NCBI GenBank assembly: GCA_018398765.1
Contig: JAHBMJ010000450.1
Location: 1-47,567, forward strand
Direction: 5' to 3'
From: Chromera velia
Lineage: Eukaryota
Length of the DNA stretch: 47,567 nt
The notes beneath the pieces were generated by a model that saw nothing but the letters and a program-made list of their open reading frames with translations, was not told the origin of the DNA and searched no databases. The position numbers and the translations under genes are program-made. This document shows positions 3,035-42,695 of this stretch, piece after piece (position 1 is the first letter of the stretch; each line of letters begins with the position of its first letter).

Positions 3035-6000
3035 TCCGTCAGATCCACTCCTGTCTCAGACGAGGAGCTTCTCCCCTTGGCTGCAGCAGCTGGTCAATTG
3101 GCTGAACAGCTATGGCCTGGACTTGTGAAAATGGCTTGCGAAGCTGAAAACTGAAAACATTAATCTCTCTTCTTTTCTATCTGCTCCCTCCCTCCCCACT
3201 GTCTGCTCCCAACTCATGTGAACAACCGGTGCCCTTGTCTTTCTGTGAACAGAAAAAGTTACTGCTGAAGGAATGCGAAACCACGTTGGCCAGCCCAACA
3301 AAAGAAATCAAGCGGAAGGATTTGGATGGTCAACAGGGCAGGAAAAAAGTGAGACAAAAGAAAAAGGCCGAATGGTTTGATAATGAATGCAAGGAAGCAG
3401 CGACACTTTGGAGGGAAGCAAGGAAGGCGTTGAACAAACTTGTGCAATCATATGAGAATGAGGGGAGAAGTGGGAGCAGCAGAGCGAACGTGGTTGCTTT
3501 AAGACAGACAGTTGAGAGGCAGGCCTGCAGATGTCAGCGATTGCACAACAGGAAAAGAAAGGCGTACGAAAAGCTCTGTGCAGAAAAGGTTGCACGTGAG
3601 TTGTCCTCTAACCCTTCAAAAGTCTGGTCATTGAGAAGAAAGCTGCAAAGAAGCAATAGAGAGAAAGCCCTTCCTGGTTCCCAGCCTTCAGTAAAAGACT
3701 TTTCCTGTCACTGGGCTTCCATGCATCTTCGCTGACTCTCCCTCTGGTAGAGAATCTGCACAAGAAAGTGCTCCCCCTTTCCCTCCTTTGCAGCTAGCCC
3801 CACCCGTTTTTAACTCTTCTTTGCACCCTGGCGTTTTTTTGTGACTGCATACCCACTCTCATCAGGTTCCCTCTTGCATTCACTCTCCCCCTTTGCCCCC
3901 ACCAATCCCTCCGTCTCACCCTTATTTTTGTATAGAAGAAATAAGGAAAGTCCTCCGGTCCACAAAGGAAGAAAAGGCTGCAGGGTTGTCCAGACTCGCC
4001 CCCAACCACCTCTCCCTCTGCTTTCAATATTCACCTCTTTCTCGTGCTTTGTTATTTATCCATTTAAACTTAATTCACTTGACATCTGCTTGGCGAGATG
4101 AATGGAATGTAATTAAATTCTGTCCGGTTCGAAAGGGGCCTCCTTCCCCCGACCCTGGTGAATGACGTCCGATTCATGTTGTCTCACTCTTACCAAAACT
4201 CTTTTCTTCACTCCTCTCTGCCTGTCTTACATCGCAAGTGAAGATTGACCATAGGCAGTTGAGTTTTCAGCAAGGGGTAGGAACAAGAGAAGCCATTGGA
4301 GCACTTACTACGCTGATGCAAAAGGCAAAGAAACAAAAGAAGCCCTTGTTAGCATACTTTGTAGACTTTAACAAAGCCTTTGACTCCCTGCCCAGGGATG
4401 TTTTGTTTAAAGTTTTGCTAAAGTAAGGGGTGAGTGCAATCGATGTCAAAATGATTTGGGCAATGTATACAAATATGTATGGAAGCATCACTGGTAGCCC
4501 TTTTATGTTCAAGGAAGAGAAAGGGGTGAAACAAGCGGATCTTCTCTCCCCTCTTCTCTTCTTAATTTTCATCAATGATCTGCATGAAAGAGTGAAGGCT
4601 TCCGGTCGTGCAGAGGTTCTGCTCAGTGGGGTTAAGTGCGATAGCCTTGGTTATGCTGATGACCTTGTCCTCATTGCTGAGAGTGTGCATGACCTGCAGG
4701 TCAGCTTAAATGAATTGAATTCTTTCTGTGAAGAGAGGGGGCTCACTGTTAATTTAAAAAAGACGAAAATCATACGTCTATCCGACTCTTACCCTACAAT
4801 TGAAAGCAGGCTTATGTTTGGGGGAAAAGAAGTCGAGAGAGTGGGGTCGTATAAGTATTTGGGTGTTCTTTTATTCGGGAGACTTATTAAGGGAGGTAAT
4901 AGAAGAGAGGCTTAGCATAGCGAGTAGACAGATGGGTCATACAAAGAGCGTAGCACTCTTTTTAGGTCGCCTGCCCCCCGCAGCAAAAATTTTGTGTTTA
5001 TGTGCTTTCTGATTGCCTGTTGCTCTATACGCGTTTGACTGTCTGCCTGTTCGCAAGTCAGATATGGATGCATTAGATATCCTTCAATTGCGCTTTGTCT
5101 GTTGGGCTTTGAATCTGTCTCTCTCTTCTTTCCATGTACCTACTTTGTATGCTGTCGGTCTACTTCCTACACGTATGCATATGTCGATGAGACTTGCTGG
5201 GTATTTGACTAACTTAAAACATATTGACCTCAAGATGCCCGCGGGTGCCTGGTTGGCTTTAATGAATGGTGATTGTCCTTCCTCTATGATGCATACACAA
5301 AAATTGATTGGGTCGACCAGATTGGAAGAATTTGTGACTGTCAATCTAACCATCAGAAGAAGAAAGAAAGCCACCAAGGTTGGCCGTCTCCTTCTCTTAA
5401 GAGCAGTGATCAACCGGGAAGTTGATGAATGGATTGATGGTTGTCTAGAAAGGGCCGCTTCACGGGGGGCGGTTTTGCAGTTTGGCAGAGGCGTCAGACC
5501 GAATGTGTTCCAAACGTCTTATCCTACTGCCCAACGTTCGTCTCTCCTCTTCCTTTCCTCTACTTTTCCTTCATCCCCTTCGTCCCCCCGTTTTGTTTCC
5601 CTCCCTCGCGCTGCGATCTGGTCCTCAGGCCTTTTTTCAGCCTTGCTGTATATGTTGCTTGGTGGTCGCCCCCATGCATCGTACAGAGGGCTGGAAGACG
5701 CGGTTTGCTCTGCATGCAGGGGCAAAGCAGACGATCTACTGCACCGACTGACTGAATGCACAGAAACAAGAGCAGATCGAGAGGCTCTGAATGCAATTGT
5801 AACCGAAATTGAAGCCAAATTAGACAGAGCCCCAAAAAGAGAGAGAAAGTGGTTACTATCAAAAGACTCCACCTCTCTAAAACACGCCACGCAAAGCGAA
5901 TTGTTGGCACGAATGAAGGTCACCCTGGCACTTAGACACTCACCCATACCGGCCCTGCGACTCTTGCAAAACATCTGTCTGCGCCCTCCATCGTAAGGCC

Positions 6001-7396: not shown

Positions 7397-10300
7397 TTAG
7401 ACCCTCGCGTGTCCGACATTTCCCTGCGGACCCCTCTTCTCTGGGTGGATGGAGACGTACTTGCGGATCTGGAAGTGCAGCTCTCGAGACCTAGACTCGT
7501 ACACCACCCGGAGGACCCATCCCAGCAAAAGGATCGTCAGCATGAAGTAAAGAAGCCAGCTCAGCCACCAAGGAGGAGTGCGAGTTGTGTAACAGGTCCC
7601 ATGCCCGAAGAAGTGGTTGATCTGCATCCAGTCGCATACACGGTGTACGCTCGGTGTGCAATAAAATTACGCTAGGCCTGCGGCACTGCGGGACAACCAC
7701 GTCTCTATACTCCTCAGCAATCAGAGGCACTCATCTTTGCAATGTCCGCATGCCGCTCGAAGTCCACTCCTGTACTTTCCACACGTCCTTTCCTTGCCGT
7801 CCTGCTTCCCCAACGCCATGGAAGTCGATTCCAAAAAATTGTGAGACTGGTTTCTCTTCCTCGTGTACTTCCTCTGTCTGTGACTCCTCTGACGGCCACG
7901 ACGGACTGCTCTAATGCCAAAAATCGGTTTCCATTCGCATGTCCATTATCTTTTGAAAGGATGAAATTCGAACGAACTCTCCGGCTTATTTTCTTTCATT
8001 CTTGGAATCGATGAATCTGGACGCGAATTCTGAAGCGAGAAAATGAAGATGCATGAAGGGCGCCCTCCTTCCGTGAACACGACAGAGAGACACGCACCAG
8101 GGAGCCCAAGGCGGGGACCGACGAGTGAGCGGATGCATGAAATGACTGGCAAAGTGAGATGACAGCGGATAGATGAATGGCGAAGTGAAAGACCAACTTG
8201 CGGATTGACTGACAGACAGTTACACCACTTGACTGTCTGCACTGCTGCTGCGTATGTATTTAAGTTTGTCTGTATGTATTTGTGACTGGCTGACGGGCTG
8301 ACTGGCTGGCTGACTGACTGACTGATTGATTGACTGACTGACTGACTGACTGACTGCTTGCCTGCCTGCCTGCCTGACCGACTGACTGACTGACTGACTG
8401 ACTGGCGGACGGACGGACGGACGGACTGACTGCCTGACTGACTGACTGACTCACCTTGAAGGTCTGGCTGAAGTCCAGGTAGATGTCCCTCCACCTGTTG
8501 TCGTTCCTGATCGACGCCTCACAGTCTCTCACATGGGCCTCTGTCTCCGCGTCCATGCACTGCCAAGTCTTCTGCAGTTTCACCTGCAAGAACAAATTCA
8601 TTCTCTTTCTCTTTTTCTCCCAGAGACTGTTTATTTCTGCATGCCGTCCATGCACGTCTGTCTGTCTGTTTTCTTTCTACACGCCTAGTCCCCTTCGCAT
8701 GCCCCTCTACACCTCTCCATCCATCCATGGTATCTCTAAGATCAACATGTAGGCATGACATGGTGTCGTCGCAATGATTTGTACTTTCTTCCTTTCAATT
8801 TCACGTGCGACAGGGAATCAAAGCAAACCAGCAGTACGCAAGCAGATGGACGGAATGGCGGGCACATGCGTAGGCTGGCAGGAAGGCAGACAGTCTCTTA
8901 GGCTTGCGTTGGGAATATGTAATAGCAGGCGGGCAGTAGGCAGTTTGGGACAAAGTCGAGACAACAGGCGGGATCCAGTTTTTGCTTCCTTTCTGAATTT
9001 TGCTGTTCGAGCCTCCCTTTTGTTCTTGTGAATAAAACATGGCTGCCTCTATCGACACCCTTTTTCTGGTGACTCGGCTACAAAAACAGACGCAGAGATC
9101 GTTGAACTCGGTCATGGTCGCTCAGTAAGTCAGTCAGTCAGTCAGTCAGTCGGTCGGTCGGTCGGTTGGTCGGTAAGTCAGTCAGTCAGTAACAGAGCCA
9201 CTCATGCACTCACAGACTTATCCACTCACTCACTCACGTGGGCGATTTGCTGAGCGCTGAGATGGGTGAAGGAGTCGGACTCGTCATACCATGACGCAAA
9301 GGGCACGGCTCGCGTCTCACGGTGCGTTACCTGCACACATGCATACGTTGACATTCATCCTTCCGTCCGTCGGTCCGTCTGTACATAAAATGGATGGATT
9401 CATTCCAACACTCTATCTGGCGCTACAGGGGTCGAACACACAAGGGAAATGGGACATTCAAATCAACAATCATGCAGACGGAGAATGAAAGGAAAATCAG
9501 GACGCGCGAAAGATCCCTCTCTCCCCACCTCCCTCTCTCCCTCCCTGCAGGGCTGCCGATGGACCCTCAGTCCTTTTTTTCATTCACTCACGTGACCCTG
9601 CGCTTCTCAGGTGCATCCCTCCTTTTTCCCTCTCCTCCGTCATTCCTTCACGTCATTTGTTCACTACGAAATAACCAAAATCATAGAAAGGAGGAGAGAG
9701 ACTGACAGAAAGACATGCACTGCGAGCGAGACGGACAGAAAGACAATCACACAACTGTTCATTCCATTGGTTGTCTTTTTTATTTGAAAGACAATCCCAC
9801 CGGCAGACATCGGCAGACCAGATAGCAAATCGATGCAGGAAGGAAGGAAGGAAGGAAAAAGGAAAAATTGAGGGAGTGAGTGAGGGAAGGAGGAAGTGAC
9901 CACACGTTCGGTTCTGGATCTCGTGACGGTCCGCGTATTTCCCCGACTGTCGGTTTCCGTTTCTGTCCAGGTGTACGTTTCCCTGCACGCATCGAAAAGA
10001 TCTCCCTCAACTCGGCAGACAGACACTGCGGTCGATCCAGATCTTCTCAATATGTCTTGTCCATCCAAGCAGTTCTCGCTGTTGTACAGAATAGACTGAG
10101 TGATCCAAACACCGGCCTCTCGCTCGTATTCGTCTAACTTTTCTACAGCGCGGGTCGTCGACCCTTTTCTTTCATTTTTTCTTTCTTCGCTGGCGGACGC
10201 ACTAACCAGTACGCAGACTTTTCTTCTGTAATTTCGAGAGAAGAGCTGTTGAGATGTCATGTCTATGCAGATCATGAGAACAAACACAATGATCGACGGA

Positions 10301-10957
10301 CCAGTGCCAACACTCGACGTGATTCTCAATCGAAGGAGACGTCAGTCTGATGTTATTCAGTCTCCGTGCCATCTCTTTCGCAGGCGACAGATTCTTCAGA
10401 GCCTCGCCCACGCGGCTGTACGCAAAAGCCTCAACCAGGTAGAGGATGTAGAGAACCACAGCAATCCCGAGTACCACAAACTCCAAGACGTCCAGGAATC
10501 CGTCCGCCAGAGCGAAACGGAAGAAAAAGAATCCCAGACCCCCCCAAATCAAAGTAGACAACAAAAGATTGACATAGTGAAAATGGTTCGGCCGATGCCA
10601 CTTAGGTTGCCGCAAGTCATCTTCGTCCACAAAACCCAAAAGCGCCTGGGGATTCTCTATGGGTCTGGTAAAGGCTTGCTGAGCCTGCAGCTGGACTGGA
10701 GACGGGTTGCCGTAATCAGCGCTCGCAGCATAAGCGGGATTGATCCCTGCTTGCGCGGCCACGGGAGCTGAGGGGGGCTGCACGAACACATATTCATCAG
10801 GAAGGTCTTCTTTGTCATCGACCACCACTCCCGGGTCGGTGAGAAACTCTCCTGTGTCCCCCCTGAGGAGTGTGGACTTTCGCACCCAGCCTCCTGGGGG
10901 GGCGGAGGGCGGTGCTGATACTCCGGAGGGGGCTGTTGAGGATTCCGCAGGCGCCAT
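7397..10957 (-). CDS. TMEM151-family multi-pass membrane protein; 5 exons (10957-10302, 9982-9901, 9330-9238, 8583-8455, 7621-7397)
   Basis: Frame-consistent GT-AG joins. Two N-terminal TM helices ending YLVEAF, then PSIENHVECWHWE, RTERVVTHRETRAVPFASWYDES, VKLQKTW...NRWRDIYLDF, and PPWWLSWLLYFMLTILLLGWVLR...IRKYV. These match TMEM151 family blocks. Confidence 0.82.
8282..8454 (-). repeat. (GTCA)n/(GGCA)n/(GTCC)n compound microsatellite starting at an intron donor
   Basis: Minus strand reads AAG|GTGAGTCAGTCAGTCAG... Confidence 0.9.
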
Positions 10958-11296
10958 GTGGCCGTCTCCTCTCGTTCTCAGGCTGAATCAGGTGGCACTG
11001 AGCGAAAGGCCGGGAGGGAAGATTGATTCCGTTACACTGAGAGGTGCAATTATTGATACATGCAACTATATTAATATATTAATATAAGCCGCTCATGCAG
11101 CAAGCGACAGCAGATGACAGCTGATGACAGGAGATGGCAGAAGTTGAAAGGGCGGTGGAGACGCGACTCGCGACAAGCCGAGTCCGCTGGCCGACAGCTG
11201 GCCCCCGACCGAATGCATGTGCACGTGCCCAAGCTCGCCGGATTATATATATACGAGCCTGGCCTGTCAAAAAAAGGAGCCGGTGGAGACTGCCAG

Positions 11297-11405: not shown

Positions 11406-12523
11406 AGCCGGATAATTTGAATTCCAAGGCACTCACCCTTTTCGCGGGCGCAGGTCATATGGCGCCGCGCGCAAGGCACTCACCCGTAGCGTTTGGTTAA
11501 TTTTTCGCTTGCGGGACCATTTTTGGCGGTAGCTTTCCGGGGCCCCCGCGCCCCCCCGCGCGCCCCCGCGCCCCCCACGCGTGTATCTAAAAAAAGGCAT
11601 GCAGGCGCGTGTGGCTAAAAAAAAAAGGCTCGCCGTATTAAGTATAGTAGATAGAGAGGGCCGTGCCCCGGCATGAAAGGTTTTGGGAAACAATTAATCC
11701 TCAATCAACCCCCCGGCCCCCCCCTCCGCGCACGTGCATGCAGGAACCAAGACGAGACATGCAAGACGAAACGTAACGAAACGAGGAAGGTCAGCACAGA
11801 AGGGCAAGATATCCAAATCTCCGAACGTTTATAACTTTCTTTAAACACGGAAAAACTTCAAACAACGCCTCGGAACGTAATCAGTACGTTTAGTTTGAGT
11901 GACAACATTAGATAAAACCTCCTAGTAACTTGTAGATACTCGTAGATCAATAATCATTTATAACATTGGTGCTCCAAATAGCAGGTTTAGAGTTCCAAAC
12001 AGATTTTAGAGATCTTTACACAACTTTAAACCATGTCTATCATATGGGTATGCAGTTTGATTCTTGCATTTTTTATTTTCAGACATTTTTTCAATCTCTC
12101 ATTTAGTATTAAATCGAATATGATCAAATTTTACTCTTATTCAATCCACAATCTCTTTTTAGAATTAGAAAATCAACAATGCATAGACTGCCAGGACTTA
12201 GACTCTACCGGCTGGGTTAATTCAATCAATCAATTAATTCACTATCATCATTCTCATAAAAAATAACATTCTAGATCAAATCTAGACCTACACATATCTA
12301 AAAGCAAAAAAATTAAAGCTTAAAGAGAAGTCAGAGAACAAAAGATTTAACAGATAAATTAACTTTTAACCCATGTTTCAGGATTATTTATGTTACTCTG
12401 CAAACCACATAATTGTTTATTTGCATATTTATATAATTGTATGAAGTCTGATACAAACGGAGAATGTTCGTATGCACAGAGCTGTCCCTTTATTCAATAG
12501 CGACTCTTTGAAGAGCACTTCGA

Positions 12524-14624
12524 TCAGTGAAACCGGGTGTATCCCCCCTGTCGACTGCTGTGGAGTCCCCTATTTTCGTTCCCGTCCGCATTTCTCTGTC
12601 GTGGGGAGACAGGGCCGCCCGGGGACCCCCGGCCTCCCATGGCATACCTGGACTTCGAGGGAGCCTTCTGCTTCATCCTCTTCCGCTCCTTCAACCATGA
12701 GAGCGTCTGAATCAGTTCCGACTGGTCCCCGTGCATTGCTTCGTCTGCTCCCCTGTTCGAGAACGGGTTGTCGTCCACGGATGCCCACTTCTTGTACTGC
12801 TGGTAGACGTACTCAAGAGACTCCTTGGCCTCCAGAAGCTGCACACAATCGTGCATGGGTGTACAGAGGCAGGTGCTTTCAGACAGGCGGGAGCGGAAGA
12901 CTCAGTCCAAAGCGCGAGAGAGCAGTGGCATCGGCATCACCATGTGTGCTTGCTTTCTTGTTTGTACCACACACGTGCTTGTTTGTTCATTTGTGTGGGG
13001 CCACTTTCAACGCCTTTTTACCACCGACACATATGCCATCGTTTCCCCTGACTTTGTCCGCGTGTTGTGCGTATATCTGTGTGTTTTGTACGTGTGTGAG
13101 TCTGCGTCTGTGTGTGTCTGTGTGTTTTGCGATCCTGGCGAGCGCGAGTCGTTTAGCGAGAAACGAATACGTTTTCTTAGTGTTGTGTATATAGAATGCG
13201 TTCAAAAGGAAACGAAAATGGATCGTCAACAAGTCTGGGATCAATATAACAAGGATAAAGCAGAAGGCGGGCCCTGCACACCAAATAGGGTGAAGAGATC
13301 GGGACAGGGGTCGTTTGATGATGCAGGGTGGTTTTTGCAATGTGTCGATTCATTAACTCGATGATCTGCAGAATGACTCACGTCGTCATTCCCACAGCCC
13401 TCCGCGTAATAGTTGTGGAGGAAGGCTTTCTTCTTCATCAGCTGTTCAAACTGCATTTTCAGGACCTCGAGCGGCTGCAAACAGCACACGGTCATAGCAT
13501 CAAAAAGTGCTTCATTTTGCCAAAGGCATACACCAGATCATGCAAAGACACCATCACGCATCGTCTCAACAGCAACACACAGCACATCACGGTGTGACCG
13601 TATCAATGACATTTTGCACCAGGAAAAAATGTGGACTCACAGGCACACTCCGAAAATTCAGTAGATTGAACAACAGAAAAGGTAGTACGCATCTGAGCGG
13701 CTTCTTCATGCATGGATGCGTCTCTTTGCACCTAGTGGAGATTTCTTGCGGACCAACCTGTGTGATGGCAGTTGTGTTTGCAGCGTAGGTGAGCGATGCG
13801 TCGACCATGTATTTGTGATTTCCGCTATACCTAGGGGGAGGAGGGATGTCGCAGATCGAAGTAGTGCAGCACCCAGGGATCCAGTCAGGGAAGTGGTCGT
13901 CGAAGTAGGGATGGTGCTGGCTGCCGTAGATGATCTTGTCGATCTCAGAGGGGGAGACGGCCTTGCCACGAAAGCACATGAACAGTCCCAGATACCGAGC
14001 GGTACGCCAGTGCTTCTGCACAATGAGGAGGCATATCAAGGGCAGTCAAGAAGAGGGTGCACGGTCCATGGCCCATCCCTTACCTGTTTCTTCTCTGACT
14101 GTCAAAGAAGGAGGAAAATACGCAATAACTCTTGACGCTTGAAAGATGTGGAGTTGCCTGATCTTGCAAGCTGATTACTCATGGGTTTTCTAGAAGGATT
14201 TGTGGCCTCTTTGTCTATCTGTGGGGCGCATCGAAAAAAAATCGCGCTGTGTCTAAAATGGGAGACTACCGGCCTGCCTGAATGCAAGGCAGAGCAAGGA
14301 ATAAAAGACTGGCCGCTGACATGATCCGTCCAAAATGACGTGCTGCGCTTTCTACCTGAGAGGAGTGCAGTCTCTACGCCGTCAGGTAAAGCCATTTTCA
14401 GCTGATGAAAGGCCCGAGTTGCCACCTAGTCGAAAGAGAAATAGAACGTCCCTTTCCTTTGCACTTCCATGCGAGAAACACCAAATATCTGACCTTATTC
14501 AACCACTTTTCCGTAGGATTGCAGGTCAGCATGCAGTTCTGCTGAGTCCACGCTTCCTGCACATTCACTCATGTACGAAAACTGTGTCTGCGCTCTCCTC
14601 CAAGACACATAAGCACACATAAGC

Positions 14625-14677
<53 letters not shown>

Positions 14678-17009
14678 GAGAGAGAGGAAAATGGATGGTG
14701 GAAGGCCGGATGGAAGGGAGAAAGAGGGAGGATGTCCAAAATGCTTTATCGGTCTTTGCATTCATATTTCCTAGAGAAAATATAGGGCACACCCCCCCTC
14801 CAAGACAAATTTGAAAGGCGCTGACCTGCACAAGTGGCTGAATATCCACCTTTCCGTACTTCTGGCTGTCTGTCCTGAGGGGGGCCCCTCCGGTGACGAG
14901 GAACTTGAGGTTCTGGAAGGGGACCAGGTTGGTGTTCATCTTTCGGAAGTCTGCATCCAGAGCTCCTGGAAACCTGCAAGGAGAATTAACAAAGGGAATG
15001 TAAAAATGTCCTGACAACATGGGGAAAATACTTTTCTGTTCCTCTCCCACTGACACTTGACCCACCTTAGGTTTGCAGTGAGCCCGGACATCATCATGCC
15101 AATGACAGCGTCACAGTGGGAGTACTCAGGGATCTCAATCTTCTTCGCCTTCCTGACCATCTCTTGGAGTGCCAGGTTGTCGAACATAAAGCACTGCAGG
15201 CAATCAAGAACAACAGGGGTAGAAAAAGGACACGGTTGGCAACCTATCCGGACATCCAAAAGAAGTTGCAGATAAGACAGACAAAGGAGACAAGAGGACA
15301 AAATCAGCAATCGTTTTTTGATTCGACATCTCAGCGTGGCGTTCACGAAAACACGTCAGGTAACCGAAGACATGCATGTTGAAGGTCTTCTCGTGCCTAC
15401 CTGTTGCGCGTACTCCTGCATGAACCAGGCATTCAGGGTAGCGTTGTAGGGTTCGACGTTGAGGGAGGAAGAATTTGGGTGTGTCATGAGACTGAAGGTC
15501 TGAATGATGGGGCCCGTCAGAGTCATGTCTGTCGACTTCAGGTGTTCATCAAAAGCCTCCAGGATCAAACTCGAAAGCCCCGACCCTGCACCTCCCGCCA
15601 TCCCGTGAAGGATCTGTGTCGCCTGCCACGAATCCATTCGCTCCACCTCTCGACGTGCAAGATCGCATACGGCCTTGGCAAGCGGCGGGCCGACGGTGTG
15701 GAAGGCTTTCGCCCAGCAGTTGCCTGTGGACTTGTCGTTATGCACGACATTCATGGGAGCCAAAAGGCGGTAGATGTCTTGCTGCCTCAAGCCGTCGATG
15801 AACTTTGCGTCTGTGTCGGCGAGAATCGCCCGGGGAACGTACCTGCATAGCGCGGAAAAGGTGTGAGGAGAAGGGAAGGAACACAAAAAACGGGGAATGG
15901 CTGAGCAGAGAGGGGGGGATAGGAGAGTGAAGAGAGAAGGGGAGGGGCAGAGGCAGGGACGAAGCATGGAACCAAGAGGGCGTACGGCAGGAAGATATTA
16001 GCAGGGAGGAAGGCAACAGTGAAGCAAAAAGGGAGATGTGTTTGGTTTGGAAAACGAAATCTGCGGGAGAGAGAATGGGCACGCCGACTGACTTGCCCTC
16101 CGAAGACTCATTGAAGTACGTCTCGACACACTGGAGATACACGTTTGAAGAGTGGTGGGGCATCCCTTCCTGGTTCGGGATAAATCTGCCAATTTCAGCT
16201 TTGGCACCTGCCGCTTGTTGTTCACGATTGTACAGAATGTAATGCTCTTCCGCCACGTCCCTCCAGAACTCCATCCCAAAGTTGATTCCAGGGCGCCCCA
16301 ACTGCATGAACAAAACACAATTTAATTTAAGAAAATACGGTCAGGCATGATCTGCAAGCTCGTAGTCGCCTGTGGTCTGGTCGAAGAATCGGACGGACCT
16401 GTACGGTTAGAATTTCTCGGTTGTGGGAGGAATATGGAACCGAGTGAGTGCCAAGCACGGTCTTGTCCTTCAAATCCTCTCTTTGCGTCGGGTGAATTCT
16501 GCAGCTGTACGTGCTCTGTCCTTTATGGCTCTTGTCCCCCTCTGCTCTATCCAGGAACTTTTTGCGGGACACACGCTGTTCAGCGTCACCTGCAGCGTTC
16601 TTGACATCACCTGTCACGAGGTTTTGCTCCAAAACAACTTCTGCTGATGTGTGCCAGGTGTCGCCGCCCGTCATGGGGCTTCCATCCGGAATGGCCGGCT
16701 TGGGAGCATTCACCACTCCTGTGTTTGCCTGATCTGCCAGTATGTCGTAAGCGTCCATGTGCCGCTGGCCCCGACTCAGCAATTCTGCAACAACACACAA
16801 CGACAGTTGAGGGTTGGGGTATGCAACCGTTGTTTTCTTTGCTGACTACATATAACTAACTGCAAGCGTTCCAGATGCAGCGAAGGAAACTTACTCGAGT
16901 CGTCAATGGCAAACGCCTCTTCGCCTTGTTTGACTTCATTTCTCTTCGCATGAGCAGCTTCCACGTTCGAAAAGTGCTGGAACGCACGGTCCTCATGTGG
17001 GTCGTCCAT
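12524..17009 (-). CDS. Highly divergent beta-tubulin-like protein, ~720 aa; exons 17009-16895, 16784-16399, 16301-16093, 15842-15401, 15193-15066, 14973-14826, 14556-14494, (14098-14084), 14015-13758, 13474-13382, 12838-12524
   Basis: Tubulin motifs across frame-consistent exons: REILTVQLG, FWRDVAEEH, KYVPRAILAD, GNCWAKA, HGMAGGAGSG, VEPYNATL, FDNLAL, LRFPGALDADFRKMNTNLVPF (Lys at the alpha-E254 position, so beta-like), RYL..FRG, FPDWIP..CDIPP, NTTAI, KKAFLHNYYAEG. No stops or frameshifts. An acceptor just upstream of the ATG suggests a further 5' exon. Confidence 0.9.
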
Positions 17010-17329
17010 GGGATCTGCAACACACAAGATTTGCGTCACTTCGCAATGTAAACAAGTTCCCACAAGGCAACAGTCCGCAGACTCAATACTACTGACTGGC
17101 AATGGTTGAAAAGAAGGTCTTCTAACAATTCGGGCTTTGCGTTCTTTCCCTTTTCTCACGTTTGCTTTCGCCGAGGCTCCTTCTGTTGCTCACTGATCTT
17201 CAAGAAAATCAGAAAAGGACAGCCTGCTGCATGTGCTCGAGCCTCAAGACTCTTGCAAGGAAATTTTGGCCAGACCTCTGCGTATTCACACGTATTTGCT
17301 TAGAAAGACGGATGATCCATTTCGCAAGC

Positions 17330-18060
17330 AATGGAAGCATCGTATTGGTATTGCGGACGTCTTGATCTAGCTATGTATATATATATATATGTCAGTCAGA
17401 CTGCACCGATCATGCATGCAATGAATTGGTGGCGCATGATGCAATGCATGTACGTTTTGCGTAAAAGCGCGCGCGATTTCGTGCGCGTGTCAGATTCACG
17501 CGCGCGCGGTCCTGCGCGTGAAAAAAAAGTCAAAATTGATTAATTAATGCATGCCCGGCGCACAGACGCACCCCGACCAAACTATTTCATATATAAACTA
17601 TAAACTATGCGTCGAACACACGTATACGCGTGCTGCGCTGCCATTCATGCAACACTACAACACCTTGCAAACTCGGGCATGCAACACTGCAGCAACAGTC
17701 ACTGCAGCAACACATGCATGCACTATTTTATTTCGAGATGTATTCAGTGACTATTCAAATGTATATGAATACGTGTCAATCATGTGTTGATATACTGGCT
17801 ATCAATTCTCGATCACGTTCGATCCTTCTGCCACGGACTGAAACCCATACTTTGAATATCGATAGTAATATATATATCGAATGCTGCAGCATTCTGCAGC
17901 ACGTGAAAATCGACCCAGTTTTGAATCATAGTAAAGAACCGCAAATAGATTAGTAGACGGGCCGCTCGACCTCTGTGCCGGCCCTTCATTTCAATCTTCT
18001 TTTGCTATAGCAGCACCATTGCTGCATTCCTCCTGTAATCGCTTTGATCAGCATCGTTTG
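17330..18060. promoter_or_regulatory. Divergent intergenic region between the tubulin-like and secreted-protein genes, with TGCATGCA palindromes
   Basis: Head-to-head starts at 17009 (-) and 18065 (+). TGCATGCA at 17413 and 17715. CGCGCG-rich patch at 17467-17520. Confidence 0.5.
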
Positions 18061-18064
18061 AACC

Positions 18065-19481
18065 ATGATGCGGATCCTTGCTGTCTTTGCTGGCGTTGCC
18101 ACAGCAGCCGCTCTAAAGCATGGAAGTCAGCACCAGATTGTACCGATGGGTCTTCCTGGCGCCCCGCCGATGGGAATGGGAATGGCCCCAGGATTGGCAG
18201 GCGCACCTGCTGGGGCTCCGACAGGAGGCGTTCCAGGTGAGAAGAAAACGGAACTGGTTGGTGCGATCGCAAACCCAATTGAGATTCCGAAGAAACGGTT
18301 GGCTTGTTTTGCAGGAATGGGGCCTGGGATGAGCCCTCAGCAGCTGCAAGCGCTTACGGGCACTACAGCTGGAGATGAGGAGGCTGACAAAGCGCGCGAG
18401 GAGGCAGAGGCAAAGATTGCATCCGACGAGATCAACGAAAGGTTCGACTGGTCTTCAAAGTTGTGACTCGATCGTTTTAAAGCCCTGTTTTTGGAGCCAC
18501 TCAAGAGCGCTCTGCAGAGTGACAGAGCTCGAGGAAGCCAAGCAGCACCGCATTGCCCGCGAACAAGCTCAAAAGGACCTCATCAAGAAGCTCATCCCCG
18601 CTACAGCCAAAGATAACGCTGCCGGTGCGAAGGAGCTTGGCGAGGTAAGCCCGGGGCAACGAGATTGACTCTCTCGATTCCAAGCGGGGTGCAAAAAATC
18701 AGCTCATCCCTCATTTTTTGCAGCTGATTGATGTGATGAGCATCTTGGCCACCCTCGAGGAACGCAAGAGAACCGGGAATCAGGCGCTCAGCAACGAACT
18801 ACTGGACATCGCTTCACTCCAGAGAGAGGTACGGGACCGATGGGTGTTGTAAATCAAAAGGCAGAGAGAGCTTGCCTGGTACACTACCGCGACTTGCTTC
18901 TGCAGAATCTTGAAGAGGCCAAGCGGGAGTCCAAAGCGCTCCGTACTATGCTGGTGTCCAACCCAAGTCAGCAACTGGTTGACAAATGTGGCACGTGAAT
19001 CATTTTGTTGTCGAGGACTCGCCATAGTCTTTGCGAAATGTGACTGCAGAGTACTTTGACTTCGCCTTCAACCTTGGGAAGTCCACTTCGTCTATCAGCC
19101 CTTCCGTAGCGATGGATCCGACTGTAAGCTCATGAACACCCTCTGGAATTCTTCCCTCTGTCAATGCGCACTTTGCTATGCAAAATCCACCTCTTGTCCT
19201 TCCAGGTTCAAGACGAGCTTGAAACGCTGCGGAAAGCGCCCATCATCATCTATGCCCCCATCAGTGCGGGCGCGGCCATCTCGCCTTCTTCACTCCTGCA
19301 ACTCGACTCTGCAAAGCTGGAGCCTCTGAACGAGGCAAACACAGCGTTCATGCTCGGTAAGCAAGCCTCAACTCTCGTCACCGCGAGCCCATTCGACTTC
19401 AATCCCGATTCGAACCTGAATGCTGTCAGACACAGAGTCCCCCACTCCTCCGCCCCCTCCACAGCCCCTTCCTCCTTTTGA
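18065..19481 (+). CDS. Secreted coiled-coil protein of unknown function; 7 exons (18065-18236, 18315-18441, 18518-18644, 18724-18828, 18906-18966, 19050-19123, 19206-19481)
   Basis: Signal peptide MMRILAVFAGVATAAAL, a G/P/M-rich segment and E/K/A-rich heptads. Six short GT-AG introns keep the frame. Confidence 0.8.
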
Positions 19482-19748
19482 AGGAGCCAGTACCGCTGGT
19501 CAGTGGCGGAAATTTTGCAAAAGTCCTTTCCGTGCCGAAGAGGTTCACGATGCAAGACGCCTGTAATGTTCTCTGCATGCAGTTGATGCAGACCAAGAGG
19601 AGTCTTGAAAAGGAGTCTTTTTGGGGAGAGCTTTTTGAGTGGTTACGAATCAAAATGGAATGAACGGGACTATGATAGTCTATTAACTAAACTGTTGAAT
19701 GCATAATTCGTGACTGACTAACAATTAATTAGTTTTCAGCAATTGAAG

Positions 19749-20288
19749 ACCAGGTTTGATTCAATAGGTTGAAAGTGTGAATTTCAAATTGATTTGATTT
19801 GAGTTGAAGACCAGATTTATAACCAGAGTTGAGATTATACATTTTCAGTTACCTAGATTAGACTTCATAGGTTCCCTATCATATGCGAACGATCATCAAC
19901 AACAATTCATAATTTTTATTTATATAACAATTAACAGCCATACAGGTATGAACCCGTCGAACCGGAATAGGAAGTGGGTAGAAACCTAATTGAAATCATC
20001 CAGCTTTGTCCCCAAACCGGGCTAACCAGCTCTTAACATTATTGCTAGCATTATTGGCAATAGGAGTATATATAGGACTTGTCATAGGAGCTTCAAGCTT
20101 GAAAGTCAAACTTGAATTTGACTTATAAATTTAGTGTAGATTTGCTAGCGGTATCAGAACATGCAAGCCCCATAAGACTTGCAGTCTAAGTTCCACATAT
20201 GATTTGAGATATTTAAACGTTGAGCGGCTTAAGCTTAATCGTAAATCAAATCCTAGATCAAAATTATCATTATCAAATCAAACCTGGT
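19749..20288. mobile_element. Degenerate TIR element related to the 1681-3026 family
   Basis: ACCAGGTTTGATTCAATA pairs with TATCAAATCAAACCTGGT. Same TTTGAT subterminal motifs. No TSD found. Confidence 0.45.
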
Positions 20289-22604: not shown

Positions 22605-23963
22605 AGCTTCCTTCTCTCTTGAGGCCGCGCAACTCACAGTCTTGCCAAGATGATCAGTAGGAGGTCCACAAGTCCTGCCGTAATGAAGATGCCGATGTTC
22701 AGTGCAGAAGACCTGCAGGGGGTTTACGGACAGGGGACTCAAGAGAAGAGAAAGGAAAAAACAAAAAAACAAGAAAAAGGCAAAGGACTACACGTCTCAT
22801 CCACAATACAGGGGAGCGTCAACAATTGCAAAAAGAACACAGAAGGCAGAGCAGAGCAGAGATCCAGATTACTGAAGATGAAAAGTCAAGCGAATAAAAA
22901 AATCACAGACTGAAGATGCCGAGCGACAAACCAAAAGCGAAGCCCTGTCAAAAAAAGCGCGAATGCATTGGGGACAGAAAGGCACGGGGATTCAAGATTT
23001 GCGTTTCTTGACGGAAGGGGAGAGCTGTAACCCACCATGGCGTACAGAGTTCCTGCCCATCATCATCGTATTCGTCCTCATCATTTGCCACCCGGCCTGC
23101 ACGATCGAGAACAAAACCAAAAGAAAAATGTGAAAACAGCGTATTGCCGTCTCTTTTTGTTCCGTCTCTCGTCTCGGCTTTCCTCGTCACGAATGTCCAG
23201 GCCATTCTATGCTTCACTAGGACTGAACGCATCCATGACCGCACTCGCATGGCCCGACCTAGTTCCCCCAGTGTGTGCAGTAGCTGCTCCTGCAAGACCT
23301 CCACAGTCTCCTCCGAGCCCTCACCGGCAGCCTCCTGCCCGACAATTCTCCCTTGCCCTGCAGGTGAGTCAACCAGAAGGGAAGATAAGGAGAAGAAAAT
23401 AGAAGCATTCTTCACCGTTCGAACAGAAGAATTTTCCCACAAGAGGTCGCTTACTCAGTGACAAGCAGACTGACTGACTGACTGACTGACCAGTTTTGCA
23501 AATCGTGCAGAGAATCGGATCGGGTCGAGACTGCCCAAGAAGTCGCGAACGGAGGGTCGTCAGCCTCAGGTTGCTTGCCCACTGTTGCCTGCATGGACCG
23601 TGCAGAAAACACAAAAAAAGAGCAAGTGAGTATCAGGAGACTGATCCACATGATTTGCGTACAAATCCAAACTGTTGCCACGTTCTTTGCTGACCAGCAT
23701 GATCGGTGCGTTACCGCATAGCACTGAGTGCAGCAATTGGCCAGTGGTTCTGTAGACCCGTCTTCCAAACAAATGAAGCACGCTGTGGACGCCCCACCTC
23801 CCGCTTCAAGGTCGCCCTCCACCTGTTGCTGCTGCTGCTGCTGCATTTCCACTCCTCTCCCGCTTCCACTTGAGCTTGAGCTGCCCGAACGCTGCGTTCG
23901 GGGAGCTCCCACATTTCTACCCGAGGCAGGAAGCATGGGAGCATTGATATCTGCCTGTGACAT
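21442..23963 (-). CDS. MARCH-like RING-CH (C4HC3) membrane protein, putative E3 ubiquitin ligase; exons 23963-23695, 23588-23491, 23357-23259, 23096-23036, 22712-22638, 22441-22352, 22186-21442
   Basis: CFICLE...NCCTQCYAVTHRSCWQQW...CTICK, then two TM helices (ALNIGIFITAGLVDLLLIILA; VVLMTLLILYCFVVLQIVGLSIY) and a long disordered tail. All splice phases fit. The start codon is the first in-frame ATG. Confidence 0.8.
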
Positions 23964-24500
23964 GTCCTGAACGGTTGAGGAGGCACAAGGTATCAGAGGG
24001 GGTGCTGACGCAGACGAATCCGCCTCGCTTGATATTGGATCCTCAGACGGCCGCCTCAGATTCGGCAAAAACTTGTGTTGAAGAAGCCCAGCGGACACGA
24101 TGCTGTAGACCGTTGTGGTGAAGACTCGATCTGCCTAGCTGGAGAAAGGTCTCTGCATGGGCAGAAGTTTGTGTGGGCTAACGGCCGGCCAGTGAGACGC
24201 CATGAATTAATCGCCTCCCCCGCGGCAGCGCACCTTCGATCCGGCGCCCCCCCGCCCCCGGCGCCCCCCCAATGTGAACAAACAGCATATTGTTGATGAC
24301 TTGTTTAGTTTTTTTTTTTTTTTTTTTTTNNNNNNNNNNNNNNNNNNNNTTTTTTTTTTTTTTTTTGCATATATGGTCTTCGACACGTTTAATGTACGTT
24401 TATGCTACTTTATGCATGCCTATCACTACCTGTCACTACTTGTCACGCCATGTGGTACCTTTAAATCTGGTCTATGCCTTTCGGTTCCGCGGCTTCTAAT

Positions 24501-28210: not shown

Positions 28211-29601
28211 ATGGACGAGTCTCTTCAGCATATGGAAAAATCTAAGCAAGTAATTAAGGAGCCATTGAAAAAGAAGGAAAAGGGCAAATCTTCTAATAAT
28301 AAAAATCGGAACAACAAAAAAAAGGAAACGGAAAAGGAGGTAGAGAGCCAAGACGAACAAATGGAAAAAAACGAAATACAAGAGAATGAGAAAGGGAAAG
28401 AAAGCAATAAGAAAAAAAAAAATAGAGAAGAGAGTGAAGGAGAATCAGATGAAGAAATGACAGATCAACAGACCAATAAAGCGCAGAAGAAGTCGTCAGC
28501 CAATTCCATGCAAGTACAGAAATGAGATTCGTCTGACAGTGTCCTGAAGGCATTAGCAAAAGAAGGAGTCACATTCAAACCAACAAAAGAAGGAGAATTT
28601 GAATTGATGTTTAACACAGACAAACTACATGTAAAGGAAACGACAGCAGACAGCTCAGCTTTGGTACCCTCACACCTTCCCTCTTTCATACAAAGAGCTG
28701 CTCTGCTACCGACTCCTCCACTGCTACCAACCCCAAACCACTTGTTCAACCCCCCAATTAAAGCAAACATCAATGCATATTCAGGAGAAAGAAAGGACAC
28801 ACGGAATTTTTGGAGAGCTTTCGATATGGACGCTACTGCCTTTCAATGGAATATCACCCAAATCCTGTTCTATTTCCGAAAATCACTGAAAGGAAATGCA
28901 CTCGACTGGTTTACAGACATATTCGACGAAAAAATGAGCAAAATTCAAACCATCACTGACCTGAAAAACACATTCTTCTCGAAGTTTGGACTCAAAAAAC
29001 CGCACGTAGAGAGAGTAGAGGCCAGCTCAGACAACTTGCAGCAAAGAGAAGAAGAAACAATCCAAGAGTATGCAGACAGGTACACTTTCCTTTGTCGACA
29101 AGCAAATTCGTCAATCGAGGATGAAAGACCGATGAAAAAATTTTGGAGAGGACTGTTCGATAAAATTGTAAAGTCGATTCTCACACAAAAGCAATACACC
29201 TCATTCGACGAATTAGTGGGGGCAGCAGAACTGATTTCACATAACTGTTACAGTGGAGCAACTGAGAGATCCAAAAAGTTTTTAGCAGTCGAAGAAACAA
29301 ATGGCGAAATGATAAAAGGAGACAGACTCACCGAGAGCCAGAAGGAAGAGCCCGCACCCTTTACAGAACGACGCATCTCCTTGTAGATCAACACGGTCCT
29401 GCAGCAGTGTTCGCACAAGCAACTTGTAAAAGATGCGGAGGCTTGACCCCTCACATAAGTGACCAGTGCCCTTTGCCACCAGACTGCGAATGCGCATATT
29501 GTGGCAACAAACGACATGAAAGACCAGCATGTAGAAGACTAAAAAAGGACTTGAAAGTAAATCGATTTACGCTTTTCAGTCTCAGAAAAAACAGACCTTA
29601 A
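28211..29601 (+). pseudogene. gag: Ty3/gypsy gag: K/E-rich N-terminus, capsid domain and two zinc knuckles
   Basis: YSGE...LKGNALDWF...LKNTFFSKF...LQQREEETIQEYADRY...FWRGL, then CKRCGGLTPHISDQC and CAYCGNKRHERPAC. In-frame TGA at 28523 and a frameshift near 29390. Confidence 0.88.
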
Positions 29602-37100: not shown

Positions 37101-40100
37101 TCAGAAGTCCGCAGTCCAATCCTGCAAGCAATGAAGGGAGAGCAGAAAGTCACACATGGGACGAGGAATGCTGTCTGTACGTTTGCTTATGCTTTCTCCC
37201 CTCTTGTCTGGCTCTTCGTGAGGAAATTAATGATGTGTTGACATATGCATCCACTGAAATGCATCAGGACACAGTCACTCTGGGTACTTGGAAGCGCATA
37301 ACAGGCACAGTGAATTATCAAACGATGGCGGCGCATGTGATCAAGGTATGACACAGAACTCCAAACTGAAGCCTTCGTTGACAGTGGGCACCGGCTTTTA
37401 CTGCAGCGACTTCAATTGGGGAACAACGACAACGTTCTGAATAATTCAGGAAGAAAGTTCAAATGGTTCTGGTTCTATCTGTCAGTCTCCGCATTCATTT
37501 CATAGATCCGCATTTATATCCACGGTTTCGCTAGTTGATGCCTGACTTTTCTTCGTTGTAGACTTGGGCTCAATTGACTCTAGTTTAGTTTCCTTTCCTT
37601 TCCTTTCCTGTGCTGCTGCCGCACTGTCTGACTGACTGACGGACTGACTGACATCTTCTGGAGCCCTCAGTTCGGCAGCCTGCAGGTAGGCAGGGAAGAC
37701 GAAAGAGGAAAATGGAAAGATAAAGGAACGCCGCAATTTGTTCTTTCTTTGTTGCAGATGGAGTATGACGGGAACATCGGCACAGCTCAGACTATGTATG
37801 CTCTCCTCGCTTCGGCCTGGGATTCTCAGCTTCCCTTCTCTCTCCCTCTCCTTTTTTCTCTTTTTCCTTCCCTTTCTCCCTAGCTCCTTCTCTCCGTCTC
37901 TCGGTCTTTTCCTTCTTACTTTCTGTTTGATGTGTCTGCTTGCCTCTCTGCCTGTCTTGATTTCTTCGCGTGTTAGTAGAAGATCTACGTTTCACCCCCT
38001 CCCAACCCTCTCTGTTTCCCGATCTCTCTTGCAAGGATCGATTGTCTGACTGACTGACTGACCCTCTTGAGGTCCTGCATGATCTGTCCCTTGGAGGCGA
38101 TCCTGGGCTCTCCCTGTCCCTTTGCCGTCTCATCCACTGACGGCACGAAGGGGGGGGAGATGGACCTCGAGAGGATCGCCTGCCAGTTCACAGGCCTGCA
38201 GGCGCAAAGCGAGAGAGAGAGAGAAAGACCGACGAAAAATAGACGGCAATACAAAGGCCAAGCGGCAATGGAAAGACGGAAAAAAGAAGCCCGCGCCGCT
38301 AAACGAAAACACGCACACATTTGAAACAAAGAGAAAAACTCCGCTCTGCTAGATGACATAAAAACGCGGCAAGATTGCAACATATCAAGAGAACTTTAAG
38401 ACGAAAGATTCATTTCTGCGTTGACAAACTCGGTCTTTCCTCGGTGGTACAATCAGCTCAGCAAACTTGCTGAGTCGCTTACTCCTTCCCTTACTCCTAC
38501 CCTCCATCTCTCACTCCCTTTCTCACTCATTGCCTCCTCCCTGACTCCTTCACTCCCTCTCTCTTGCTCCCTCCTTCATTTCGTAACTCCCTCCTCACTC
38601 ACTCACTCATTCACTCCCTCACTCACTCAAAGAAAGGCTGCGCCTTGACTTCCTCCGCGCTGTTCAGTCGCACAGCGGGACTCTTTTCCAGAAGTCTGCA
38701 TGCACGAATCCAGCAGAAGGGACGGGCACATCCAGGAGGTGAGAGAGGAACAAGCTTTTTGAACACACAGAACAAGTGCGCTTCCAATGCCAAAGTGAGG
38801 AGAGTCGAACTCGTTGAGAGAAGCGGGAAGCAACAAAGAAAAGGGAAAGATTGCTGCTTCAATGAGAGAAGTTGAACAGAAATCCTTGTCTATCCTGAGG
38901 AGGCCCTCAAAGCTGGTCAGGAAAAAATGAGAGAAGAAAAACAAAGAGCAGAGCAGCGCCTCGACACTTTGAGAATACGAAGAGAAACTGGGACACCCGA
39001 CAGAACGTTCTGCAAGCACACAGAAGACATCCATTTGAACGACTACTTGGCACGTAAAATGCCCTCTACCTGCCTGCCTTCCTGCCTGCCTGCCTGCTCA
39101 CCTGGACATGACTGCTTTGGCAGGCTCATCCAGGACATGCGCAGGAAAATCGAGTGGTTTGTAGAGAATTTCCTTGAACAGATCCAAGTGCCCCTCGCAT
39201 TTGTATCCGAAGGGGAGGGGCCCACACACAAACTCGTAGATGCACACCCCGAGGGCCCACCAGTCGACACCCTTACCGTACCCCTTTCCCATGATCACCT
39301 GCGGGCGTCAGAGAAAACGCACACACAGAAGAGCCCGTCAAAGTTGAACGACAAGAGATTGAGGTCGGTACCTCTCTTCTTTTAAGAGACTTCTCAAGAG
39401 TTCTGGTTGTATGCGAAGGAGTGCAGTTTGCGAAAGTAGTTTTGTCTTACTGAAAAAAAGGCGTTGCCTGTCTCCATGCTATGATATCTCTGTTCCGGAT
39501 CGTAAGTTTCTTTTGCAGCTGTCCGCCTTTCTCAATTCGGCAATTATTAATAGCTCAATTATTTCTGCGTACCTCCGGAGCCAGGTATTCTGGTGTTCCG
39601 ACAAGAGTGTACGTTCGTGCCGTTCGCTTGCAGGTTCCGAAATCTGCAGACAACCCAGAGTCACCCTCTTTGCCAAAGGAAGCAATCGCACCGACACAGA
39701 ACAGACGTTCAAGAGAAGGATGGATGCACGAAAGTATTGCTCGAGAAGAGTAGGCACAGAAAAAGACATGACATGCAGAATCTCAATTGGAGGGCCACGA
39801 CGTGAAAACAGCAAAGCAACGCTCCCTTTCCACACACTTCGCTTGGCAATTCGCTTCGCTGACTGACTGATTCACTGACTGACTGACTGACCGACTAGTT
39901 TGACGAATCCCTCCCCATCCAGCATCACATTCTCGGGTTTCAGATCCTGCACACAGACAGCCGTGCAGCATCACAGTGAAGAGGGAAAGGGACGTCGGTA
40001 GACGCGCATGATTGCATGACAGGATGGCGGCATAGACAAATTGAAGCAAAATAATGCTTCCAAAGACCAGTCGCAGATGAGACCAACAGCGCAACATCAA

Positions 40101-42654: not shown

Positions 42655-42695
<41 letters not shown>

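What the first reader, a model, noticed from the sequence alone, without database searches (positions are those of the whole stretch)
12524..17009. Intact but remodelled beta-tubulin-like protein with a ~160-aa N-terminal extension
Seen: the tubulin start motif is internal (NREILTVQ) behind ~160 aa of unrelated sequence, yet the fold is uninterrupted across 10-11 exons. Known: alpha/beta tubulins are extremely conserved and begin MREI/MREC, a terminus needed for co-translational autoregulation in animals. Divergent beta-like tubulins are known mainly from ciliates and foraminifera. Inference: this may be a new tubulin subfamily for a specialised structure (conoid, pellicle or flagellar apparatus) or a lattice-capping role.
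Basis: partly seen in the sequence, partly recalled or inferred. Interest (0 to 1): 0.78.

Follow-up and report, generated by a model that had tools for sequence, protein, structure and literature searches.

The report
Undescribed beta-like tubulin family of Myzozoa
This intact, spliced gene of the alga Chromera velia encodes one member of a distinct family of beta-like tubulins shared with Vitrella, Perkinsus and dinoflagellates, which I did not find described in print; it is predicted to pair with alpha-tubulin but has altered growing-end and motor-binding surfaces, so it likely builds or caps a specialised microtubule array.

Summary
Transcript contigs join all nine coding introns into a 718-aa frame (17009 to 12524, minus strand), with the tubulin start at residue 160. 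The gene is Chromera velia Cvel_17526, labelled only 'tubulin beta chain'; the public model misses two exons.

The main result is a family, not the extension. The protein falls in a clade of 69 sequences (support 100) from Vitrella, Perkinsus, Oxyrrhis, Amoebophrya and core dinoflagellates, 35-40% identical to beta-tubulin and sister to canonical beta. A position outside alpha+beta is rejected (AU p=0.021). Members keep the phosphate-binding loop and beta K252. They change plus-end and H11/H12 residues, carry a 10-residue loop insert, and replace the acidic tail with a predicted folded hairpin-helix.

The long N-terminal extension is predicted disordered, is not conserved in sequence, and occurs only in Chromera, Vitrella and two unnamed deep-branching proteins.

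Binding to alpha-tubulin, location and capping are untested. Delta, epsilon and zeta were excluded only indirectly. Ten literature searches found no description.

The parts
17097..17319 (-). 5'-UTR exon (minimum extent); holds a 7-codon upstream ORF at 17232-17209
17015..17096 (-). 82-nt 5'-UTR intron, spliced in runs X2 and X3, retained in the X1 contig
16895..17014 (-). Coding exon 1, ATG at 17009; aa 1-38 of the N-terminal extension; absent from the public 650-aa model
16399..16784 (-). Coding exon 2: extension aa 39-160 (to 16420; second ATG at 16758 is the public start), then tubulin strand S1 (R161 at 16419)
   Evidence: predicted disordered
16093..16301 (-). Coding exon 3, aa 168-236: T1 loop (beta Q11 to R, C12 to P), H1, enlarged H1-S2 loop
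15401..15842 (-). Coding exon 4, aa 237-384: T2-T5 loops; T4 loop reads AGGAGSG (beta T143 to A)
15066..15193 (-). Coding exon 5, aa 385-426: H6-H7 (beta N204 and Y222 kept, N226 to D)
14826..14973 (-). Coding exon 6, aa 427-476: T7 loop, H8 with beta-type K252 (K438), M-loop
14494..14556 (-). Coding exon 7 (63 nt), aa 477-497: end of H9 and part of the family's H9-S8 insert; absent from the public model
13758..14015 (-). Coding exon 8, aa 498-583: S8, H10, S9, S10
13382..13474 (-). Coding exon 9, aa 584-614: H11
12524..12838 (-). Coding exon 10, aa 615-718: H12, family C-terminal module with an extra helix (about 12721-12668), basic low-complexity tail, TGA at 12526-12524; no acidic E-hook
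12428..12523 (-). 3'-UTR (minimum extent covered by contigs)

Best explanation
The gene is the spliced, intact Chromera member of a beta-lineage tubulin family shared by chromerids, perkinsids and dinoflagellates; its product is predicted to bind GTP and pair with alpha-tubulin through a beta-like minus face, and likely serves as a minor subunit of a specialised, non-axonemal microtubule array of flagellate cells. Shown: splicing, open frame, family membership, sister position to canonical beta, residue changes. Predicted by AlphaFold: tubulin fold, folded C-terminal module, disordered N-terminal extension. Inferred: (1) a beta duplicate in or before the myzozoan ancestor diverged, then stayed under its own constraint; (2) K252 and the H8/S9 contacts still seat on alpha's non-exchangeable GTP; (3) changed T1/T2/T3 and H11 residues alter how the next dimer adds, so the subunit slows, ends or anchors growth; (4) remodelled H11/H12 and loss of the acidic tail remove normal motor, MAP and glutamylation sites and offer a new docking surface; (5) the extension is a flexible tether or phospho-regulated linker added on the chromerid side. 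Candidate sites are flagellar roots, or the pseudoconoid and peduncle microtubule strand.
For: Splicing and frame. Family: Vitrella is the best non-self hit among 1.84 billion representatives (383 bits; next 306 for P0183; single-copy canonical betas about 230); named members; clade of 69 rows, support 100, 21 of 21 rows at 100 under LG+C20; internal order follows the expected species order. Beta affinity: identity 35% to beta, 27% to alpha; structure-aligned identity 35% beta, 28% alpha, 26% and 22% gamma; family+beta 98, AU p=0.021 against a place outside alpha+beta. K252 in 59 of 63 rows; G141, G142, G144, N99 in 63 of 63. Family consensus equals beta at 26 of 39 minus-face against 16 of 44 plus-face positions (p=0.008). 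0 of 63 have an acidic tail or EGEF; 55 of 63 have an 8-12 residue H9-S8 insert. The Amoebophrya model has pLDDT 91 with hairpin 469-481 and helix 489-500. Precedent: Tetrahymena BLT1/4 enter cortical and nuclear, not ciliary, microtubules (PMC3382179, passages).
Against: No binding or location data exist here. The surface lists are recalled, not taken from a call. The family is one lineage, and 8 of 56 unrelated divergent betas show a minus-plus gap over 0.2 (family mean 0.23). The Chromera protein alone is not significant (19 of 39 against 16 of 44, p=0.27). The outer-surface deficit (-0.15) is only about 1.2 SD from controls. Language-model features place two members nearest gamma and epsilon clusters. 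The first 30 residues score best to gamma (44.7 against 39-43 bits), and H11-H12 best to Asgard and alpha tubulins (36.6 and 32 against 28 for beta). Chromera's copy has the longest branch (1.0-1.2 against 0.4 for Vitrella) and lost T143, D177 and N226, so its GTP binding may be weaker.
Confidence: 0.55

Rival explanations
1. Dedicated end-cap or anchor: alpha plus this subunit forms a terminal dimer whose plus face cannot accept another alpha, so it ends or tethers microtubules rather than building them.
For: Fixed changes at N100 (C in 63 of 63), W101 (Y in 62 of 63), Q11 (K/R in 57 of 63), E69 (N in 51 of 63) and W397 (V in 44 of 63) with the minus face kept. The Perkinsus member appears once as a single peptide and is not listed in a whole-cell complexome where canonical beta is abundant, which would fit low stoichiometry.
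Against: Asymmetry lies within the range of other divergent betas. M-loop Y281/R282 are kept in 54 and 51 of 63, as expected for lattice contacts. Absence from a proteome has many causes.
Confidence: 0.2
2. Self-contained polymer or centriole-type structural tubulin: like gamma, delta or epsilon it works without alpha (monomer, homopolymer or basal-body part), and may be an old lineage that split before canonical beta took its present form.
For: Gamma/epsilon-like features; gamma-like first 30 residues and Asgard/alpha-like H11-H12; sister to, not inside, canonical beta with a 0.8 stem.
Against: Segment differences are 2-9 bits on 30-60 residues. The whole profile and M-loop/H9 rank beta first. 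K252 in place of a catalytic Glu argues against a self-activating homopolymer (established alpha/beta chemistry). Named members are only myzozoan, and long branches slide to the base.
Confidence: 0.15
3. The family is functional elsewhere, but the Chromera copy is decaying under relaxed selection, and its extensions are neutral accretions.
For: Longest branch in the family; only 40% match to the family consensus; changes in the GTP pocket; extensions share no significant similarity with Vitrella's (966 of 1000 shuffles score as high once the last 15 residues are removed).
Against: Open 718-aa frame over 10 exons, clean splicing, confident fold; 3 of 4 coding differences to the RNA strain are synonymous (too few to weigh much); Vitrella has extensions of like length and the same junction residues.
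Confidence: 0.1

Closest known systems
Canonical beta-tubulin (Tetrahymena 6u0h_B, Toxoplasma 7miz, yeast 4ffb_B)
   Same: Fold (TM 0.93; Z 50.8, rmsd 1.6 A over 409 residues; the model's alignment held 20 canonical betas, so this is partly circular), glycine-rich T4 loop, K252, best PDB sequence hits.
   Different: 35% identity; no MREI/MREC start; Q11, E69, N100, W397 changed; inserts in H1-S2, H4-S5, H9-S8 and S9-S10; folded module instead of the E-hook; 159-aa N-terminal and about 47-aa basic C-terminal additions in Chromera.
Tetrahymena beta-like tubulins BLT1-6 (PMC3382179, passages read)
   Same: Divergent beta paralogues in an alveolate with changed GTP site and interfaces, used in non-ciliary arrays. 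This is the best functional model.
   Different: BLT1 and BLT4 are 471 and 458 aa. No named ciliate protein is among the family hits. This family is one conserved orthologous group across a whole clade. No named BLT sequence was in my trees.
Retarian beta2-tubulin (bioRxiv 10.1101/064030, passages read)
   Same: Clade-wide divergent beta paralogue with new conserved surface sites.
   Different: Confined to Foraminifera, Radiolaria and Taxopodida, multi-copy, with a partner alpha2 and variable T7/H8. Here T7/H8 is conserved, and no partner alpha clade was seen among the hits (not searched for directly).
[quoted passage not shown]
   Same: Separate conserved classes at about this depth of divergence; no acidic E-hook in this family; N-terminal 30 residues resemble gamma.
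   Different: 22-26% identity to gamma against 35% to beta; beta-type H3, T7/H8 and S9; AU test rejects a place outside alpha+beta.

Membership tests
Tubulin superfamily | Tubulin GTPase and C-terminal domains with the tubulin fold | tested here: met
   PF00091 126 bits over cut-off 33; PF03953 26.0 bits, just under cut-off 26.6 on the model lacking one exon; fold
Tubulin superfamily | Signature [S/A/G]GGTG[S/A]G (as given in PMC10056924) | tested here: inconclusive
   Chromera reads AGGAGSG (one mismatch); 36 of 63 family rows match exactly; the three loop glycines are invariant
Beta-tubulin lineage | Groups with beta to the exclusion of alpha | tested here: met
   SH-aLRT 98 with Heimdall tubulins as outgroup; AU p=0.021; quick trees, no bootstrap
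Beta-tubulin lineage | Lys, not catalytic Glu, at H8 position 252/254 | tested here: met
   K438 in Chromera; K in 59 and N in 4 of 63 rows
Canonical beta-tubulin | MREI/MREC N-terminus | tested here: not met
   REI is internal at residue 161; 1 of 63 family rows starts MREI
Canonical beta-tubulin | High identity (over about 75%) to other betas | tested here: not met
   35% over 424 columns
Canonical beta-tubulin | Acidic unstructured C-terminal tail; EGEF axoneme motif | tested here: not met
   0 of 63 for both; folded module predicted
Canonical beta-tubulin | Heterodimer with alpha, GTP binding, polymerisation | not testable with these tools
   No complex prediction was available; only residue conservation
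Gamma-tubulin | Closer in sequence and structure to gamma than to alpha/beta | tested here: not met
   26% and 22% to gamma against 35% to beta; only the first 30 residues favour gamma
Delta/epsilon/zeta tubulins | Grouping with these clades | tested here: inconclusive
   No reference sequence obtained. Indirect only: AU test; the non-family hits under 50% identity showed alpha/beta-type motifs by eye
Ciliate BLTs / retarian beta2 | Grouping with these clades | tested here: inconclusive
   The family joins none of 100 beta-class rows, 57 of them 60% or less identical to canonical beta, but those rows are mostly unnamed, so I cannot say that BLT or beta2 was among them

The most novel reading that the evidence does not exclude
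A further tubulin class specific to Myzozoa: a beta-derived terminal subunit that docks on alpha-tubulin, blocks or redirects plus-end growth, and uses a folded C-terminal cap in place of the E-hook to anchor the open microtubule sheet of the pseudoconoid and peduncle; its loss in apicomplexans would mark the change to the closed conoid.
Probability: 0.15. Interest if true: 0.88.

Novelty: new variant of a known kind. Interest (0 to 1): 0.64.

Why it matters
Surveys recognise six eukaryotic tubulin classes (PMC4202323), and the passages I searched in four of them do not treat chromerid or dinoflagellate tubulins. A seventh conserved group (core members average 64% identity to each other, about 38% to beta) kept from Chromera to Symbiodiniaceae but not seen in the surveyed apicomplexans gives a direct handle on which microtubule structure the parasite lineage remodelled or lost. 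It is also a natural test of what a beta-type subunit does without an acidic tail. Chromera can now be transfected with tagged tubulin (PMC12407925), so location is testable at once. The corrected 718-aa model is needed for that.

Tried and rejected
Mis-annotation or fusion of an upstream gene: rejected, since single contigs join extension and domain. Pseudogene: rejected, open frame and clean splicing. Extension as a conserved domain: no Pfam hit, pLDDT under 50 for residues 1-109 of the 650-aa model (the first 47 residues of my model were not folded); similarity to Vitrella's 60 of 1000 shuffles, to P0183's 20-23 of 1000, uncorrected over six tests. Viral origin of intron-less members: 0 of 67 pattern matches confirmed in viral contigs. 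No whole genome is held, so copy number in Chromera was not checked. No run is on record as RNA, and contigs give no start site, level or stage. The complex prediction with alpha-tubulin was not available, so there is no result either way. The careful bootstrap tree did not finish; quick trees are cited. A structural search of the second model did not complete. Gamma/delta/epsilon sequences were sought in 10 contaminated genomes without success. Gene ids were not found in supplements: Woo 2015 (12 of 16 files searched), Farhat 2018 (10 files), Decelle 2022 (5 files). Earlier scan notes held nothing relevant. P0014 (great tit) scored high only because it holds a duplicated canonical beta.
Full report
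Gene structure. The locus is a minus-strand gene of 11 exons. Contigs of public runs skip ten GT..AG introns. Runs X1 and X2 join all 9 coding introns, X3 joins 8 of 9, and X5 gives only unspliced pieces. The two joints that link the extension to the tubulin domain stand in 4 of 4 runs of study P1. These runs are listed as 'RNA?' and come from one study; contigs show neither start site nor level. The joined frame is 718 aa from ATG 17009 to TGA 12524-12526, with NREILTVQ at residue 160. Stops lie upstream in frame whether or not the 82-nt 5'-UTR intron is removed. Mets before the domain are at 1, 48 and 76 only, so an extension of at least 84 residues is unavoidable.

Identity. Exon 4 matches UniRef A0A0G4FKT0, Chromera velia Cvel_17526, 'Tubulin beta chain', at 100%. 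That 650-aa model starts at Met48 and skips exon 14494-14556. Chromera also has two canonical alpha and three canonical beta genes (PMC12407925, passages), so this is an extra paralogue.

A family. A full-length search returned a set of 507-529 aa proteins scoring above ordinary single-copy betas. A profile of 19 of them gave 134 hits, of which 120 were listed; only the 7996 best word-sharing candidates were scored. Named members: Vitrella brassicaformis; Perkinsus marinus, olseni and chesapeaki; Oxyrrhis marina; Amoebophrya A25, A120 and AT5.2; Ansanella, Biecheleria, Gymnodinium smaydae, strain TGD, Effrenium, Durusdinium, Symbiodinium pilosum, Polarella and Prorocentrum cordatum. No named apicomplexan or ciliate is among them, but most rows are unnamed. 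Morrissette's survey finds one to three near-identical betas in apicomplexans (PMC10056924, passages). In an exhaustive search of 1.84 billion representatives (4883 hits, best 150 listed) the Vitrella protein is first at 383 bits and an unnamed 626-aa protein, P0183, second at 306.

Phylogeny. Of 324 classified proteins, 265 near-full cores were kept and cut to 183 at 85% identity. All 69 family rows form one clade at support 100. Under LG+C20 a 63-row quick tree gives family 100 and family+beta 98 against alpha, rooted on two Heimdallarchaeota tubulins. A 20-row tree rejects alpha+beta without the family (AU p=0.021) and does not reject the three long forms as a clade (p=0.17, which does not show one). 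The order inside is chromerids and P0183, an unnamed clade, Perkinsus, Oxyrrhis, Amoebophrya, core dinoflagellates, as expected for one vertically inherited gene. The family is sister to canonical beta on a long stem, which may be a long-branch effect. [quoted passage not shown] Structure-aligned identity is 35% to beta, 28% to alpha, 26% and 22% to gamma. Against this: Atlas features rank gamma and epsilon clusters first for two members (top 3 of 30 shown), and short segment profiles from 7-8 transcripts favour gamma for the first 30 residues and Asgard or alpha tubulins for H11-H12, while M-loop/H9 and the whole profile favour beta.

Anatomy (63 near-complete rows, sequential beta numbers). 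Kept: D67, N99, the T4 glycines, N204 (58), D249 (60), K252 (59), N256 (61), W344 (63), Y281 (54), R282 (51). Changed: Q11 to K/R (57), E69 to N (51), N100 to C (63), W101 to Y (62), R262 to N (43), F394 to Y/H (55), W397 to V (44), D417 to Y (53). An 8-12 residue H9-S8 insert occurs in 55. None has an acidic tail or EGEF; 58 have 30 or more residues after H12. AlphaFold folds that part of the Amoebophrya member as a hairpin plus helix (mean pLDDT 91) and gives the Chromera model a matching helix (586-603 of P0001). Chromera adds its own changes in the GTP pocket (C12P, T143A, D177S, N226D) and has the longest branch. With recalled surface lists, the family consensus equals beta at 26 of 39 minus-face and 16 of 44 plus-face sites (p=0.008), and at 21% of outer-surface sites against 41% overall. 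As a control, 8 of 56 other divergent betas have a gap over 0.2, and Chromera alone gives p=0.27. The asymmetry is therefore suggestive only.

The extension. Over 100 residues precede the domain in 4 of 69 rows: Chromera 160, Vitrella 169, P0183 115 and P0186 105 (a Vitrella-like row with a doubtful start); the median is 10. Chromera and Vitrella share only the last residues before REI, and similarity is not significant. It is predicted disordered. It is a feature of the deepest branches, not of the family. The loss of MREI matters little: autoregulation through that motif is known from animals (recalled), and 62 of 63 members lack it.

Mechanism. The most likely reading is an alpha-binding beta paralogue that enters a specialised, stable, non-axonemal array at low stoichiometry, with changed plus-end behaviour and a new outer surface. 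An axonemal role is less likely because apicomplexan microgametes keep flagella (PMC10056924). Structures shared by the carriers include flagellar roots and the pseudoconoid or peduncle strand (PMC5029502, passages). Tetrahymena BLTs are the working precedent (PMC3382179, passages). The only protein-level trace is one peptide of the Perkinsus member in a purification table, with no entry in the whole-cell complexome; one supplement was cut when stored (PMC13623125, supplements). All functional steps are inferred.

Novelty. Ten full-text searches found no description; I saw listings and abstract starts for these. Term searches in PMC4202323, PMC10056924, PMC9871819, bioRxiv 2024.01.08.573270 and bioRxiv 2026.02.15.705738 found no Chromera or dinoflagellate tubulin treatment (passages only; 'Chromera' was not a term). 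Their supplements and trees were not seen, nor 4 of 16 Woo 2015 files, and most subscription journals are outside the library, so a member may already sit unnamed in a published tree. Verdict: real, intact and transcribed; a member of an apparently undescribed myzozoan beta-like tubulin family; new variant of a known kind; interest 0.64.

Noticed in passing
window 16895-17014 and 14494-14556: The public model A0A0G4FKT0 / Cvel_17526 omits these two RNA-supported coding exons (68 aa in all).
   Followed up: yes
window 17992-19750 (+): Head-to-head spliced gene (7 GT..AG joints in run X2) with a signal-peptide-like start, a Pro/Gly/Met-rich part and a charged helical part; no Pfam hit for its first exon.
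   Followed up: partly
window 17015-17096 and 17209-17232: Alternatively retained 5'-UTR intron and a 7-codon upstream ORF in the same transcript; may regulate translation.
   Followed up: no
window 4427-5993 (+) and 28526-29598 (+): Retroelement remains: a reverse transcriptase piece (RVT_1) and a Ty3/gypsy-type gag.
   Followed up: partly
window 38600-45800 (-): Weak cNMP-binding and protein kinase domain hits, under Pfam cut-offs, possibly one large cyclic-nucleotide-regulated kinase gene.
   Followed up: no
window 23454-24134 (-) and 10205-10987 (-): A weak RING-like ORF, and a membrane-protein-like ORF with no Pfam hit.
   Followed up: no
L017, L054, L055, L057 (Myxococcota MAGs); L051, L053 (Methylococcaceae and Thiothrix MAGs); L016 (cyanobacterial MAG): Tandem intron-less alpha-like and beta-like tubulin pairs on contigs of bacterial MAGs, up to 413 kb long; the gammaproteobacterial pairs are 58-68% identical to eukaryotic tubulins. 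Whether the contigs are truly bacterial was not checked.
   Followed up: partly
L086:5962-7137 and L087:4941-5612; proteins P0118, P0124, P0155, P0215, P0218: A faster-evolving, intron-less subclade of the family in gene-dense contigs of unknown eukaryotes; some members lack part of the H6-H7 region.
   Followed up: partly
P0183 (626 aa) and P0186 (531 aa): Unnamed deep family members with long N-terminal additions. P0186 is close to the Vitrella protein; the source organism of P0183 would decide whether any apicomplexan-side parasite keeps the gene.
   Followed up: partly
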